NCBI RefSeq assembly: GCF_030384885.1
Contig: NZ_CP128616.1
Direction: 5' to 3' (one strand)
DNA from: Escherichia coli
Lineage (GTDB): Bacteria; Pseudomonadota; Gammaproteobacteria; Enterobacterales; Enterobacteriaceae
DNA: 4,445 nt
Shown piece by piece: positions 1 through 4,445 of this stretch (position 1 is its first letter; every line of letters begins with the position of its first letter). The notes under the pieces are model-generated. The model was given only the letters and a program-made list of their open reading frames with translations, ran no database searches and had not been told where the DNA came from. The translations under genes were made by a program, and so were the position numbers.

Positions 1-262
1 AACAGTGAGCCATGTAGATGGTTGGAATGGCCTTCCTCAATACGAAATCAGGGGAAATAAAATCTACAGGACAGTGAGCCATGTAGATGGTTGGAATGGT
101 CTTCCTCAATACGAAATCAGGGGAAATAAAATCTACAGGACAGTGAGCCATGTAGATGGTTGGAATGGTCTTCCTCAATACGAAATCAGGGGAAATAAAA
201 TCTACACAACAGTGAGTCATGTAAACGGTTGGAACGGTCTTCCGCAATATGAGATCAGATAA
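1..262 (+). CDS. 3' portion of a small tandem-repeat protein (5'-partial in window; appears to continue from 4426-4445 across a circular junction); hypothetical
   Basis: Frame is open from position 2 to TAA at 260-262. Encodes VSHVDGWNGLPQYEIRGNKIYRT three times plus a diverged shorter copy. Differences between copies are mostly synonymous (GGC/GGT, AGC/AGT, AAT/AAC, CCT/CCG, TAC/TAT, GAA/GAG, AGG/AGA) against two amino-acid changes (R to T, D to N), which argues for selection on the protein. Confidence 0.6.
   Translation, partial: TVSHVDGWNGLPQYEIRGNKIYRTVSHVDGWNGLPQYEIRGNKIYRTVSHVDGWNGLPQYEIRGNKIYTTVSHVNGWNGLPQYEIR
2..259 (+). repeat. 69-bp tandem direct repeat, about 3.7 copies (units starting at 2, 71, 140, 209); in-frame coding repeat
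   Basis: Units 1-3 are near-identical (one GGC/GGT difference); unit 4 has eight substitutions. 69 bp = 23 codons, so the repeat is in frame. Confidence 0.9.
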
Positions 263-294: not shown

Positions 295-324
295 ATTTAC
301 CATAACATCTGTATTGTACGCACC
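295..324 (-). other. cer-like XerC/XerD site-specific recombination core (plasmid multimer resolution site)
   Basis: Reverse complement of 295-324 is GGTGCGTACAA-tacagatg-TTATGGTAAAT. Both 11-bp arms match the ColE1 cer XerC and XerD arms as I recall them (GGTGCGTACAA / TTATGGTAAAT) with an 8-bp central region, as in cer. Confidence 0.8.
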
Positions 325-520
325 GTTAAAACGCGCTCAGCGCGATTCTGGCGCAAAAACCGTAAAAAGGGATGTTTTCCCCGGGGTAAACCGGAAAAAT
401 GCGTCAGGATTGTTTTCAGCGCGTTGCATGACTATGCATGAAACTGAATGGCAATCGATCCGGGCGCGTCCGCTGTCCCTGAGGCTTATTTTTGGCAGTT
501 TTCTTTCTGTCTGCGTCACA
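325..520. promoter_or_regulatory. Putative cer accessory region (ArgR/PepA side), with a candidate ARG-box-like dyad at 425-440
   Basis: Lies on the XerC-arm side of the core, where cer accessory sequences sit. tgcatgactatgcatg at 425-440 loosely resembles an ARG box (TNTGAATWWWWATTCANW). Extent and ARG box are inferred, not matched to a reference. Confidence 0.35.
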
Positions 521-558
521 TTCCATGCCAGAACACATCCGTCAGCAACGACATTCAA

Positions 559-780
559 CAGCCCACCATTAGCCCACACACAAAATACCGATGGGCACAC
601 CGATGTATCATAAAAATTTATCCGTTATATTTCATACAAATAAGAGGCCACCATCAGCCCACTCTATTAGCCCACAAAACGCCCACACTTTTGCTATCAC
701 TATGATTATCAATATAAAACCCACAAAAGTGGGCTGATGATGGGCTAACTGTGGGCGTAGAAGCCCATCATCAGCCCACC
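559..780. repeat. Array of GCCCAC/GTGGGC hexamer motifs (at least 9 copies) with AT-rich spacers and a perfect 17-bp inverted repeat (729-745 / 763-779)
   Basis: GCCCAC at 561, 572, 657, 670, 681, 773; GTGGGC at 729, 751; GCCCAT/ATGGGC variants at 740 and 763. Spacings of 11, 13, 11, 22, 22 bp. gtgggctgatgatgggc (729-745) is the exact reverse complement of gcccatcatcagcccac (763-779). Confidence 0.7.
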
Positions 781-1021
781 ACATCCGACAAAATAGAATT
801 TTTTGCCAGATAAACACCACTATAACGCACTGAATTTAAAGTAAAATCACGCAAAACGCAGTTTTGCGACAGGTGTGGTAAATGCAGGTCAGAGGAGAGG
901 GGAATTTCAGGCGCGGAGCCGGTCCTGGTTCGGGCTACAGGACTCTCAGAAAAAGCGAATAAATTTGCGCTGGCCGTCAGAGCATTACGCCGGGGTATCG
1001 GGGTGAAACCCTGAGCAGGAG

Positions 1022-1061
1022 GTAATTGTAATAGCGTCACGGGTGACGGTATTACAATTAC
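1022..1061. repeat. 19-bp near-perfect inverted repeat (palindrome) with 2-bp centre
   Basis: gtaattgtaatagcgtcac gg gtgacggtattacaattac; arms are reverse complements with one mismatch (G/G at 1034/1049). Confidence 0.8.
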
Positions 1062-1411
1062 ACATCCTGTCCTGTGTCAGGCAGCCGGATACGGTCGTCC
1101 TGGTGGCAACAGTCGGGCAGGGGGTACAACTGTACCCCGTCACATCCGCAAAAGATTTACGGCACGAAACAGGAGCGACGCAACAACTGCCGGTAACACG
1201 ACCCCATGAACGGGACAGGATGTGTAATCGTATAACCGCGCACGCACGTTCATCCGATTACAACCTGGTCAGGGCTTTACCCCGACACCCACGATGTGAT
1301 GAACGGATGAACATAAAACAACCGGAAAAACGCTCACTGTCCAGGCAAAGAACGGAACACGGCATAATCACATGATGCTGAATACAGAGACAGAACGGAG
1401 AACGACAGAAG

Positions 1412-2440: not shown

Positions 2441-2512
2441 GCAAGAGATTACGCGTACAGAGCACGGATCTCAAGAAGATCGTAAGAAGAAAGTTAACAT
2501 GAGTGTTTTTAT

Positions 2513-2558
2513 CCCTCAAAAAGAAGGCTTCTATAAATAGAAGCCTTCTTTTTGAGGG
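2513..2558. terminator. 46-bp perfect palindrome / strong hairpin; likely bidirectional terminator between the higA 3' end and the RNAII promoter
   Basis: ccctcaaaaagaaggcttcta taaa tagaagccttctttttgaggg; 21-bp arms are exact reverse complements. T-rich sequence follows on the + strand; higA stop lies 26 bp away on the - strand. Confidence 0.65.
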
Positions 2559-2583
2559 ATAACTTATATTTTTTTAAAAAAAA

Positions 2584-3142: not shown

Positions 3143-3460
3143 CTATCGGTAATCATGTGGATCGAGATACAAATCCTCGATTCCGTTTTCACCCCACTTA
3201 AATATTAAGCGGTACTTCTCATTCACCCGTATGGATGAATACCCTGTCAATGGAGGGTTGAGATTCTCAAATCGGTTTCCCGGGGGAGACCGCAAATCTC
3301 CAACTTTATCAGCAGCATTCAGCATATCCAGCTTGCGACCTAATGAAGCACTAATCGCAGTTGGAATCTTTCGATTGGCTTTACCATATTTGTAAAACTG
3401 GTATAGCCAATCGTCTCGAAACTGAATGCGGCAATCATCATGTTCATGATCTTGCTGCAT
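3143..3460 (-). CDS. higB: HigB-family toxin (RelE/ParE superfamily, plasmid maintenance system killer type), 105 aa
   Basis: C-terminal region ...DLRSPPGNRFENLNPPLTGYSSIRVNEKYRLIFKWGENGIEDLYLDPHDYR matches the family signature I recall (DLRSPPGNRLE.L.G.R.GQ.SIR.N..WRL.F.W.......I.DYH). GAGGT RBS 9 nt upstream of the ATG. Toxin precedes antitoxin, as in hig loci. Confidence 0.85.
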   Translation of the reverse strand: MQQDHEHDDCRIQFRDDWLYQFYKYGKANRKIPTAISASLGRKLDMLNAADKVGDLRSPPGNRFENLNPPLTGYSSIRVNEKYRLIFKWGENGIEDLYLDPHDYR

Positions 3461-3646
3461 TTTTCTTTTACCTCAATTTTTGCCGCAACTTGGCAATTTT
3501 TTAGATCACCTTCTTACCTCCGATATAGTACAGCAAACACAAGAAATGCACAACAGCACAGTGCACTTGTGCAACCAATAACCATACTGTAGAATGCACC
3601 CACACACAGTGCAGATGTGCAAAATAGAGGGTAATTTGGAGGTTAC
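3461..3646. promoter_or_regulatory. Divergent promoter/operator region between higB (-) and the 80-aa ORF (+), with repeated TGCAC/GTGCA dyads
   Basis: Perfect palindrome TGCACttGTGCA (3562-3573), near-palindrome TGCAGatGTGCA (3610-3621) and further TGCAC copies at 3547 and 3595. Two copies of a roughly 19-bp repeat cacagtgca(c/g)(t/a)tgtgcaa (3557-3574, 3605-3622). Candidate higB promoter on the - strand: -35 TTGTGC (rc of 3548-3553), 17-bp spacer, -10 TACTAT (rc of 3525-3530). Candidate + strand promoter: -35 TTGTGC (3567-3572), 17 bp, -10 TAGAAT (3590-3595). Confidence 0.55.
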
Positions 3647-3889
3647 ATGGCTCTTGTTCGTTCAGGAAACAAAAGCAAGATTTTTGAAGCAGATAAGAAG
3701 TTTAACTCGGTTTTTGACACTGAATATCAGCCGGGAGAAACATGTAAATATGAAGGGATTTATAAATGTACCGGTTGCGGTAAAGAAGTAACTATCGCAG
3801 GTGGGAAAAAAATCCCACCACAAAACCACCACCAACATACCCCCGCGCAAGGGAACATTCGTTGGCAATTGTTTGTTTATGCTCAGTGA
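3647..3889 (+). CDS. Hypothetical small protein (80 aa) with Cys-x6-Cys-x2-Cys and a His-rich C-terminal segment; possible metal-binding or zinc-ribbon-like
   Basis: GGAGG RBS 4-5 nt upstream of the ATG; ORF starts right after the palindromic operator region, divergent from higB. Sequence ...CKYEGIYKCTGCGKEVTIAGGKKIPPQNHHQH.... No family recognised from memory. Confidence 0.55.
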   Translation: MALVRSGNKSKIFEADKKFNSVFDTEYQPGETCKYEGIYKCTGCGKEVTIAGGKKIPPQNHHQHTPAQGNIRWQLFVYAQ

Positions 3890-4064: not shown

Positions 4065-4083
4065 ATATCTACAGCTGACACTG

Positions 4084-4099
4084 ATTTACCATAGCATCC
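4084..4099 (+). repeat. Copy 1 of a 16-bp motif ATTTACCATA(G/A)CATC(C/T) (XerD-arm-like)
   Basis: atttaccatagcatcc; 15/16 identical to 4365-4380 and 14/16 to 295-310 (the XerD arm plus adjacent central bases of the cer-like site). Lies 33 nt upstream of the 4132 start codon. Confidence 0.7.
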
Positions 4100-4335: not shown

Positions 4336-4364
4336 AACCATAAGGCAGCATCAAAACGGCATTC

Positions 4365-4380
4365 ATTTACCATAACATCC
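4365..4380 (+). repeat. Copy 2 of the 16-bp motif ATTTACCATAACATCC (exact XerD-arm match, no convincing XerC arm)
   Basis: Reverse complement reads ...ggatg TTATGGTAAAT. The 11-bp arm is identical to the cer XerD arm; the flanking candidate XerC arm matches cer at only about 5 of 11 positions. Lies 46 nt upstream of the ATG at 4426. Confidence 0.7.
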
Positions 4381-4425: not shown

Positions 4426-4445
4426 ATGAGCAATAAGATCTATAG
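4426..4445 (+). CDS. 5' end of the tandem-repeat protein gene (3'-partial in window; continues in frame at position 1 if the molecule is circular)
   Basis: ATG at 4426 with GGAG 6 nt upstream; encodes MSNKIY then R from the junction codon (4444-4445 plus position 1), followed by TVSHVDGW... at 2 onward. The repeat unit sequence itself continues across the junction (aataagatctatag|a versus aataaaatctacagga). Confidence 0.6.

What the first reader, a model, noticed from the sequence alone, without database searches (positions are those of the whole stretch)
1022..1061. Isolated 19-bp near-perfect palindrome about 350 bp upstream of rop
GTAATTGTAATAGCGTCAC-GG-GTGACGGTATTACAATTAC is long for a chance dyad and sits in a region without credible ORFs. 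It could be a binding site for a dimeric regulator, a cruciform or single-strand initiation element, or part of a structured RNA.
Basis: seen in the sequence. Interest (0 to 1): 0.4.

Follow-up and report, generated by a model that had tools for sequence, protein, structure and literature searches.

The report
Borrowed conjugation transfer origin (oriT)
The palindrome is the inverted repeat of an IncI1 (R64)-type origin of transfer that this small ColE1-type plasmid carries without its own relaxase, so a co-resident conjugative plasmid can probably move it; this kind of element is already well described.

Summary
Arms 1022-1040 and 1043-1061 are 19 nt long with one G.G mismatch and a 2-nt spacer, and no shuffle of the window produced an inverted repeat longer than 14 nt.

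It is not isolated and it is not an operator or an RNA. Window 991-1075 is 87-89% identical to the DNA just upstream of nikA-nikB in IncI1-family conjugative plasmids, including R64. The match covers the small box repeat, the 17-bp repeat B/repeat A pair with the same mismatch, and the nick region ACATCCTG|T 8 nt after the repeat. The predicted nick lies between 1069 and 1070 on the + strand.

A second, B/O-type oriT lies inverted at 1210-1296. An F-like oriT lies at about 826-881. The window has no nikA or nikB, so all three would need helper proteins supplied in trans.

Across 57 distinct relatives the repeat is kept by compensatory changes. The arm nearest the nick, which is the NikA site in R64, is the better conserved.

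Equivalent elements are published: pEC156, mobilised by R64 and F, and pBuzz, with two inverse oriTs. This is a new instance of a known kind, of low interest. NikA binding, nicking and transfer are inferred here, not shown.

The parts
991..1075 (+). oriT-A, a complete IncI1 (R64)-type origin of transfer unit made of box repeat, 19-bp inverted repeat and nick region
   Evidence: It is 87-89% identical to the stretch that begins 13 bp from the nikA start codon in IncI-family conjugative plasmids. It aligns with those plasmids and with R64 itself.
998..1014 (+). Small box inverted repeat, TCGGGGT-gaa-ACCCTGA, equivalent to the 8-bp repeat of R64 oriT
   Evidence: It aligns to GTCGGGGCGAAGCCCTGAC of R64. 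Relative to R64 it carries a paired change, C..G to T..A. It folds as a small hairpin in single-stranded DNA. PMC3817090 describes the 8-bp repeat set of R64 oriT.
1022..1040 (+). Nick-distal arm of the palindrome, called repeat B in R64 nomenclature
   Evidence: (I5). Across 57 relatives the distal arm varies more than the proximal arm: column entropy 0.83 and 32 variants. Several sister plasmids carry an uncompensated T1029A change.
1043..1061 (+). Nick-proximal arm, repeat A, the inferred NikA binding site
   Evidence: CGGTATTACAATTAC is identical to the arm in IncI plasmids L001, L002 and L006, whose NikA is the same protein as R64 NikA (WP_001283947). This arm is the better conserved one: entropy 0.54 and 17 variants. 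Binding itself is inferred from R64 work and was not tested here.
1062..1075 (+). Nick region ACATCCTG|TCCTGT, with the predicted relaxase nick between G1069 and T1070
   Evidence: ACACATCCTGTCC is an exact match to R64 and to the other I-complex plasmids examined. The nick lies 8 nt after the repeat, as in R64. The nick position is taken from R64 by homology and from my knowledge of Furuya & Komano 1991. PMC7440800 names ACATCTTGT as the homologous nick region of pCTX-M3.
1070..1215 (.). 146-nt segment between the two predicted nicks, which would enter a recipient first whichever of the two I-type oriTs is used
   Evidence: It is conserved at 80-98% in the 11 loci that carry this I1 + B/O module and absent from other oriT pairs. 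Its folding is no better than that of shuffled sequence. Its function is unknown.
1210..1296 (-). oriT-B, a second and diverged oriT unit of B/O type in inverse orientation
   Evidence: It is 91.5% identical to the DNA upstream of the nikA-like and relaxase genes of plasmids MOB-suite-typed IncI1/B/O (L004) and IncFIB + IncI-gamma/K1 (L003). It is almost invariant in the sister ColE1 plasmids.
1210..1223 (-). Nick region of oriT-B, ACATCCTG|TCCCGT on the minus strand, with the predicted nick between 1216 and 1215
   Evidence: Exact match of ACACATCCTGTCC on the minus strand at 1225-1213; alignment.
1224..1240 (-). Nick-proximal arm (repeat A) of oriT-B
   Evidence: CGCGGTTATACGATTAC together with the nick region is 100% identical to the B/O-type plasmids L003 and L004.
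1247..1261 (-). Nick-distal arm of oriT-B, which is degenerate
   Evidence: GTAATCGGATGAACG against GTAATCGTATAGCCG in B/O plasmids. Three of the 15 outer pairs are not Watson-Crick.
1265..1286 (-). Box repeat of oriT-B
   Evidence: GTCGGGGTAAAGCCCTGACCAG, 2 mismatches to the I1 box.
826..881 (+). F-like oriT nick region, in the same orientation as oriT-A: repeat gcaaaac-gca-gttttgc at 851-867 and predicted nic between 876 and 877
   Evidence: Window 802-870 matches IncF conjugative plasmids between traM and the SLT gene. GCAAAACGCAGTTTTGCGACAGGTGTG aligns with only one difference to L260. The nic position is inferred from my recall of the F nic site GGTGT|GG.

Best explanation
The palindrome is the inverted repeat (repeat B plus repeat A) of an IncI1/R64-type origin of transfer carried as an orphan on a small ColE1-type plasmid. 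The likely sequence of events is as follows.

1. When an IncI1-type conjugative plasmid shares the cell, its accessory protein NikA binds the nick-proximal arm (1043-1061).
2. NikA then positions the relaxase NikB on the adjacent nick region.
3. NikB cuts the + strand between G1069 and T1070 and stays attached to the 5' end.
4. The strand is exported 5' to 3' through the helper's type IV secretion system, so the repeat enters last.
5. In the single strand the two arms pair into a hairpin that helps the relaxase recognise the end and re-join the strand (termination).

A second unit of B/O type on the opposite strand (1210-1296) and an F-like unit (about 826-881) would do the same with other helper families.

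What is shown here: homology, position next to nikA-nikB in helper plasmids, conservation with compensatory change, absence of nikA and nikB from the window, and co-residence with a matching helper in one strain. What is inferred: NikA binding, the exact nick, the hairpin role and actual mobilisation.
For: (1) Homology. Window 991-1075 matches more than 3000 plasmid records.

(2) Position. In IncI-family conjugative plasmids and in R64 the match begins 13 bp from the nikA start codon, with nikB behind it.

(3) Anatomy shared with R64:
- the same box repeat;
- the same 17-bp repeat with the same G.G mismatch;
- an identical ACACATCCTGTCC with the nick 8 nt after the repeat.
The proximal arm is identical to that of plasmids encoding a NikA identical to R64 NikA.

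(4) No relaxase. The window has no nikA or nikB: tblastn gave no hit with E below 0.5, and Pfam found nothing on the local ORFs.

(5) Covariation across 57 distinct cores collected with anchors outside the repeat:
- 91.8% of pair cells are paired, against 27-52% when the partner columns are slid;
- 115 cells changed on both sides, against 7-23 in the slid controls;
- 0 of 500 shuffles reached the observed values.

(6) Asymmetry. The proximal arm is more conserved than the distal arm, and no sequence has a perfect repeat. This fits one-arm binding by NikA.

(7) Hairpin. The transferred strand folds into a strong hairpin of -23.5 kcal/mol, z = -6.4.

(8) Experimental precedent. pEC156, a ColE1-type plasmid without mob genes, has a 93-bp R64-type oriT and an F-type oriT. 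It is mobilised by R64drd11 and by F, and deleting both sites abolishes transfer (PMC4743918).

(9) Co-residence. Strain RHB47-C04 carries a plasmid with this module at 99.3% identity. It also carries a conjugative MPF_I/MOBP plasmid whose NikA is 100% identical to R64 NikA, and a conjugative IncF plasmid.

(10) Typing. PLSDB/MOB-suite types the sister plasmids as mobilizable without listing a relaxase.
Against: - No binding, nicking or mating experiment exists for this plasmid.
- The window has T at +4 after the nick (TCCTGT), where I-complex helpers have C (TCCCGT). Whether that is tolerated is unknown.
- pKPN2, which has an R64-like oriT, was reported not to be mobilised by R64drd11 (PMC4743918), so sequence similarity does not guarantee function.
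- Several sister plasmids carry uncompensated changes in the distal arm, so the perfect dyad itself is not strictly required.
- G.T pairs count as pairs but are mismatches in DNA.
- The co-residence evidence comes from a single strain.
Confidence: 0.85

Rival explanations
1. The unit is a relic. It was acquired from an IncI1-type plasmid but no longer works, and it persists only through recent common descent.
For: One published R64-like oriT (pKPN2) was not mobilised by R64. The window has a C-to-T change at +4 after the nick. The distal arms of oriT-A in sister plasmids, and of oriT-B, carry uncompensated mismatches.
Against: The proximal arm and nick region are identical to those of functional helper plasmids. 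The unit is kept in different replicon backbones: ColE1-type plasmids and a 2117-bp Salmonella plasmid. In L015 the left unit has been swapped for another complete oriT type rather than left to decay. pEC156 shows that such orphans can work.
Confidence: 0.1
2. The dyad is an operator for a dimeric transcriptional regulator that controls a nearby gene such as rop.
For: It has dyad symmetry, and the window encodes an HTH protein, HigA.
Against: No promoter-like site lies in 850-1460. The repeat is 351 nt from rop. The same sequence sits at oriT of conjugative plasmids that have no rop or higA nearby. The conserved asymmetry and the fixed 8-nt distance to the nick motif are not features of an operator.
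Confidence: 0.02
3. It encodes a structured RNA hairpin, such as an sRNA, terminator or attenuator.
For: The hairpin is strong on both strands, and the stem shows covariation.
Against: No Rfam match was found even at E up to 1. There is no promoter or terminator-like site and no T-run. The homologous sequence in helper plasmids is the mapped oriT. A stem-internal mismatch that is conserved in most sequences, together with arms that differ in conservation, argues against a plain RNA stem.
Confidence: 0.02
4. It is a single-strand initiation or cruciform element used for vegetative replication of the ColE1 replicon.
For: ColE1-type plasmids are known to carry hairpin priming sites (my own knowledge), and the hairpin here is stable.
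Against: The element lies about 800 bp from the replication origin region, on the far side of rop. It occurs on plasmids with unrelated replicons (IncI, rolling-circle, Rep-type), always with the nick motif.
Confidence: 0.01

Closest known systems
oriT of IncI1 plasmid R64 / ColIb-P9 (NikA-NikB relaxosome; Furuya & Komano 1991-2000)
   Same: It has the same box repeat, the same inverted repeat with the same G.G mismatch, an identical nick motif ACATCCTG|T 8 nt from the repeat, and the same order of parts. There are 4 differences in the 52 nt from the repeat to the nick.
   Different: No nikA-nikB follows it. Two loop substitutions lengthen the repeat from 17 to 19 bp. The outer pair is T-A instead of C-G, a compensatory change. 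The base at +4 after the nick is T, not C. Homology to the helper plasmids stops about 6 nt past the nick.
pEC156, a ColE1-type plasmid carrying the EcoVIII R-M system (PMC4743918); pKPN2, pColG and pSe-Kan are listed there as similar
   Same: It is a ColE1-type replicon with cer and rop, no mob genes, an R64-type oriT and an F-type oriT close together. Mobilisation in trans by R64 and F was shown experimentally.
   Different: The cargo differs (HigBA here). The window also has a second, B/O-type unit in inverse orientation. The pEC156 sequence could not be fetched for a direct alignment.
pBuzz (Moran & Hall 2019, Plasmid 101:10), a cryptic plasmid with two inversely oriented oriTs that is mobilised by a B/O plasmid
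   Same: Two I-complex-related oriT units in inverse orientation and no relaxase gene (title and citation seen in PMC11389934). pBuzz-sized plasmids such as L008 carry a B/O-type unit.
   Different: pBuzz is a roughly 1.5-kb rolling-circle plasmid, whereas this one is a ColE1 theta replicon (RNAI). The spacer between the units is not homologous. The paper itself could not be read.
pCERC7 / NTP16 / pU302S family (Moran & Hall 2017), which has nikA plus oriT but no nikB
   Same: Small plasmids that borrow an I-complex relaxase through an R64-related oriT (PMC9282650).
   Different: Those plasmids encode their own NikA and have 20-bp repeats about 78% identical to R64. The window encodes no NikA.
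RP4 (IncP) oriT
   Same: The layout is the same: an inverted repeat followed 8 nt later by a nick in ATCCTG|Y (my own knowledge; also the title of Furuya & Komano 1991, cited in PMC3817090).
   Different: The repeat sequence and the accessory protein (TraJ) differ. This was not compared here.

Membership tests
IncI1 (R64)-type oriT | Sequence homology to the DNA immediately upstream of nikA-nikB in I-complex conjugative plasmids | tested here: met
   87-89% identity over 85 bp. The match begins 13 bp from the nikA start and aligns with R64 itself.
IncI1 (R64)-type oriT | 17-bp imperfect inverted repeat whose nick-proximal arm is the NikA recognition sequence | tested here: met
   The repeat is present with the same G.G mismatch. 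The proximal arm is identical to that of plasmids encoding R64-identical NikA.
IncI1 (R64)-type oriT | Conserved nick region ACATCCTG|T placed 8 nt from the repeat | tested here: met
   Exact ACACATCCTGTCC at 1060-1072, with the repeat ending at 1061.
IncI1 (R64)-type oriT | Second, 8-bp inverted repeat (box) on the nikA side | tested here: met
   998-1004/1008-1014, with a paired substitution relative to R64. PMC3817090 describes both repeat sets.
IncI1 (R64)-type oriT | NikA binds the proximal arm and NikB nicks at the site | not testable with these tools
   This needs EMSA or footprinting and nick mapping.
IncI1 (R64)-type oriT | Supports transfer when an IncI1 helper is present | not testable with these tools
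   The precedent comes from pEC156 only (PMC4743918). A matching helper co-resides in one strain.
Relaxase-in-trans (orphan oriT) plasmids | oriT present but no relaxase or accessory gene on the plasmid | tested here: met
   tblastn with NikA and NikB of I1 and B/O types gave nothing with E below 0.5. Pfam found only Rop, HigA and HigB.
pBuzz-like double oriT | Two I-complex-type oriT units in inverse orientation | tested here: met
   Units on the + strand (nick 1069/1070) and the - strand (nick 1216/1215).
pBuzz-like double oriT | Small rolling-circle replicon | tested here: not met
   ColE1-type replicon: RNAI at 2333-2433 scores 91 bits, and Rop is present. It therefore works like pBuzz but is not a member of that plasmid family.
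pCERC7/NTP16 family | Plasmid-encoded NikA | tested here: not met
Transcriptional operator | Overlaps or adjoins a promoter | tested here: not met
   No sigma-70-like site in 850-1460.
Known structured RNA | Match to an Rfam covariance model | tested here: not met
   No match at the locus at E up to 1.

The most novel reading that the evidence does not exclude
The head-to-head pairing of two oriTs of different specificity, with a conserved 146-nt segment between the nicks, may be a selected composite rather than an accident. Whichever helper acts, the same short segment would enter the recipient first.

That segment could aid establishment. Its conserved GGGGTACA-AC-TGTACCCC hairpin at 1121-1138 might act as a single-strand priming or promoter site. 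Alternatively, the complement of one oriT might pair with the other at the ends of the transferred strand and help recircularisation.

In support, every close pair found in the plasmid and metagenome loci has this orientation, across at least five spacer classes. The spacer is also as well conserved as the oriTs themselves.
Probability: 0.1. Interest if true: 0.45.

Novelty: new member of a known kind. Interest (0 to 1): 0.15.

Why it matters
It explains how a 4.4-kb plasmid with no mobilisation genes can still spread. It carries docking sites for the relaxases of at least two, and probably three, families of conjugative plasmids: IncI1, B/O and F-like.

These sites are left unannotated in the public records examined here; every matching stretch was listed with no feature under it. 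Annotating them matters for predicting which small plasmids are transmissible, and with which helpers. For biology in general it is a routine example of a documented strategy.

Tried and rejected
- Rfam scan of the whole window at E up to 1. Only RNAI is real; the microRNA hits fall on the 2509-2562 palindrome and are spurious.
- Promoter and terminator scan of 850-1460: nothing found.
- Coding hypothesis for ORFs 1043-1375(+), 771-1040(-) and 985-1143(-). They have no Pfam match, and indels in relatives break their frames.
- Search for nikA and nikB in the window: absent.
A stricter pattern on metagenome contigs worked.
- The original R64 papers (PMC179678, PMC208999) and the pEC156 record AF158026 are not held. 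R64 anatomy therefore rests on the R64 sequence itself, on secondary descriptions (PMC3817090, PMC4743918, PMC7440800) and on my own knowledge.
- I first read the left unit of L015 as a decayed copy. I rejected that because it is a different oriT type found in 116 plasmid records.
- The inter-nick spacer was tested for unusual folding: none (z = 0.2 and -0.7). It was also tested for presence in other oriT pairs: absent.

Full report
**Observation**

The window is a complete small circular plasmid of ColE1 type.
- RNAI lies at 2333-2433 (91 bits).
- Rop lies at 1442-1615 and a HigB/HigA pair at 3143-3460 and 2584-2940.
- An ORF runs across the ends of the window.

The reported palindrome is exactly as described. 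Arms 1022-1040 and 1043-1061 are 19 nt long, with one mismatch (G1034.G1049) and a 2-nt spacer. In 300 dinucleotide-preserving shuffles the best inverted repeat of this kind never exceeded 14 nt. The 15-nt half-site occurs twice against 0.09 expected. The rop start annotated in sister plasmids corresponds to 1412, which is 351 nt downstream. The overlapping ORFs have no family match and are broken by indels in relatives.

**What it is**

A 321-nt query around the site found 3249 plasmid records. Apart from the 19 records in which one place covers at least 80% of the query, the listed matches, including every conjugative plasmid, shared only window 991-1075. About half of the matching records were typed conjugative.

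In IncI-family conjugative plasmids the match lies 13 bp from the start codon of nikA, which encodes the IncI1 relaxosome accessory protein. The relaxase gene nikB follows behind it. The same holds in R64 itself.

Aligned with R64, the window shows every part of the R64 oriT in the same order:
- the small box repeat (GTCGGGGCGAAGCCCTGAC in R64; TCGGGGT-gaa-ACCCTGA at 998-1014 here, with a paired C..G to T..A change);
- the 17-bp inverted repeat, with the same G.G mismatch;
- ACATCCTG|T, starting directly after the repeat.

Secondary sources describe the R64 minimal oriT in these terms. [quoted passage not shown] They also name repeat A plus the nick region as the core (PMC4743918). From my own knowledge of Furuya & Komano (1991, 1995, 1997, 2000):
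- the nick is 8 bp from the repeat;
- NikA binds only the nick-proximal arm;
- the 44-bp core suffices for initiation;
- the full repeats are needed for efficient termination.

By homology, the nick in the window falls between G1069 and T1070 on the + strand. In the helper plasmids, the strand 3' of the nick runs towards ardA and psiB. This fits the leading region entering first. In the window, transfer would therefore proceed rightwards from 1070 and the palindrome would enter last.

Two loop substitutions relative to IncI1 plasmids (A1039 and G1042) lengthen the repeat from 17 to 19 bp. The outer pair T1023-A1060 is a compensatory change relative to R64 (C-G), and it is shared with other IncI plasmids whose NikA is identical to R64 NikA.

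**It is not isolated**

A second unit lies inverted at 1210-1296 (I2, 11, 34). It is closest (91.5%) to the oriT of I-complex plasmids MOB-suite-typed IncI1/B/O (L004) and IncFIB + IncI-gamma/K1 (L003), which I call B/O-type here. Their NikA-like protein is 67% identical to R64 NikA, and their relaxase is 72% identical to NikB. Its proximal arm and nick region are 100% identical to those plasmids, whereas its distal arm has three mismatches. The two predicted nicks face each other across 146 nt.

About 200 nt upstream of oriT-A, window 802-870 matches IncF conjugative plasmids in the gap between traM and the SLT gene. This is the F-type oriT position. The match includes a repeat, gcaaaac-gca-gttttgc, followed by GGTGT|GG.

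The window contains no nikA or nikB. So 826-1296 is a stack of three orphan transfer origins.

**Evidence that the repeat is selected**

A strict pattern, anchored only on the box and the nick motif, retrieved 120 metagenomic loci. Together with the plasmid loci, these gave 57 distinct cores.
- On the 19 pairs of the stem, 91.8% of cells are paired, against 27-52% when the partner columns are slid.
- 115 cells carry changes on both sides, against 7-23 in the slid controls.
- No shuffle of 500 reached the observed values.
- Outer stems such as GTAATTG/CAATTAC, GTAATCG/CGATTAC, GGGAATGTC/GACATTCCC, GCGTTTG/CAAACGC and GTGTTTG/CAAACAC replace one another.

The two arms are not equivalent. The proximal arm has lower column entropy (0.54 against 0.83) and half as many variants (17 against 32). 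One internal position is mismatched in 35 of the 57 sequences, and no sequence has a perfect repeat. That pattern fits an element that must both form a hairpin or dyad and present one specific arm to a protein. The window's oriT-A is among the most symmetrical copies, with a single mismatch.

As single-stranded DNA, the transferred strand folds at -23.5 kcal/mol (z = -6.4). The stem extends beyond the repeat, so that CAGGAG pairs with part of the nick motif.

**Evidence for function in trans**

pEC156 is a ColE1-type plasmid with cer and rom and without mob genes. It carries an R64-type and an F-type oriT. It is mobilised by R64drd11 and by F at 0.2-0.6 of the helper's own transfer frequency, and it loses this when both sites are deleted (PMC4743918).

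pBuzz is reported to have two inversely oriented oriTs and to be mobilised by a B/O plasmid (citation seen in PMC11389934).

Sister plasmids of the window are typed 'mobilizable' by MOB-suite with no relaxase listed.

Strain RHB47-C04 carries a 3758-bp plasmid with this module at 99.3% identity. The same strain also carries a 145-kb conjugative MPF_I/MOBP plasmid, whose NikA is 100% identical to R64 NikA and whose oriT equals that of R64. It carries a conjugative IncF plasmid as well. This is a single example.

**Caveats**

- Nothing here shows binding, nicking or transfer for this plasmid.
- The base at +4 after the nick differs from the helpers (T for C).
- pKPN2, which has an R64-like site, was not mobilised by R64.
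- The distal arm carries uncompensated changes in several sisters.
- G.T is counted as a pair.

**Rivals**

- A non-functional relic remains possible (about 0.1).
- An operator is unlikely, because there is no promoter and the same sequence serves as oriT in plasmids that lack the window's genes.
- A structured RNA is unlikely, because there is no Rfam match, no promoter or terminator, and the two arms differ in conservation.
- A vegetative priming site is unlikely, because the unit travels with unrelated replicons, always joined to the nick motif.

**Wider pattern**

In the loci collected, every pair of units less than 1 kb apart is arranged like the window's, with nicks facing inward. Nick-to-nick distances are 147, 158, 265-268, 381, 461 or 874 nt, and the two repeat-A types can be the same or different.

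The window's spacer is conserved only within its own module lineage (11 of 139 loci), and it does not fold unusually.

Homology to helper plasmids stops about 6 nt past each nick. In sister plasmid L015 the left unit has been replaced by a different oriT type, with the exchange boundary at the nick. Both observations fit acquisition by relaxase-mediated recombination at nic. That is an inference.

**Verdict**

The finding is real and is explained. It is the inverted repeat of a borrowed IncI1-type origin of transfer, one of three orphan oriTs on this plasmid. It is a new instance of a documented kind, and its interest is low.

Noticed in passing
window 826-881 (+): An F-like origin of transfer. 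The repeat gcaaaac-gca-gttttgc (851-867) is followed by GGTGT|GG. It matches IncF conjugative plasmids between traM and the SLT gene. The predicted nic is between 876 and 877.
   Followed up: partly
window 540-790: A cluster of AGCCCAC-containing repeats (D3), including a perfect 18-nt inverted repeat at 729-746/762-779 and related arms at 645-663. The full stretch is found only in about 8 close relatives. Its function is unknown.
   Followed up: partly
window 4426-4445 joined to 1-262 (+): An ORF that crosses the circular junction and consists of four 23-residue repeats (NKIYRTVSHVDGWNGLPQYEIRG), encoded by 69-bp tandem repeats. It has no Pfam family above threshold.
   Followed up: partly
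window 295-325 (-), and 4079-4099 and 4360-4380: ATTTACCATAACATCTGTATTGTACGCACCG reads like a cer-type XerC/XerD core on the minus strand; this rests on my recall of ColE1 cer and was not tested with tools. Two further copies of the ATTTACCATA(A/G)CATCC half lie near the other end of the window (D2), which suggests Xer-bounded modules.
   Followed up: no
window 2509-2562: A perfect 26-27-nt palindrome with A and T runs on both sides, lying between the RNAII promoter side of the origin and the 3' end of higA. It is probably a bidirectional terminator. It attracts spurious microRNA hits in Rfam.
   Followed up: no
window 3545-3574 and 3593-3622: Two 30-nt direct repeats with GTGCAC cores (D4), between higB and the 80-aa ORF 3647-3889. 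They may be operators for the toxin-antitoxin pair.
   Followed up: no
L015 (CP117579) 215-312: In this sister plasmid the left oriT unit is of another type, with nick region TATCTTGT, similar to the pCTX-M3 nick region given in PMC7440800. Identity to the window resumes exactly at the nick, as expected for exchange by recombination at nic.
   Followed up: partly
L146, L178, L180, L184, L196, L206, L210, L235, L248, L249, L253 and others: All oriT units paired within 1 kb in the plasmid and metagenome loci are arranged with nicks facing inward, in at least five spacer-length classes. No pair with the nikA sides facing each other was seen.
   Followed up: partly
L008 (pHUSEC2011-3) 600-700: The second 'box' in this 1549-bp plasmid is followed by sequence that I recall as the ColE1/pBR322 bom type (…GTATACTGGCTTA) rather than an I-type nick region. 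The same box repeat therefore seems to be shared by ColE1-type and I-type oriTs.
   Followed up: no
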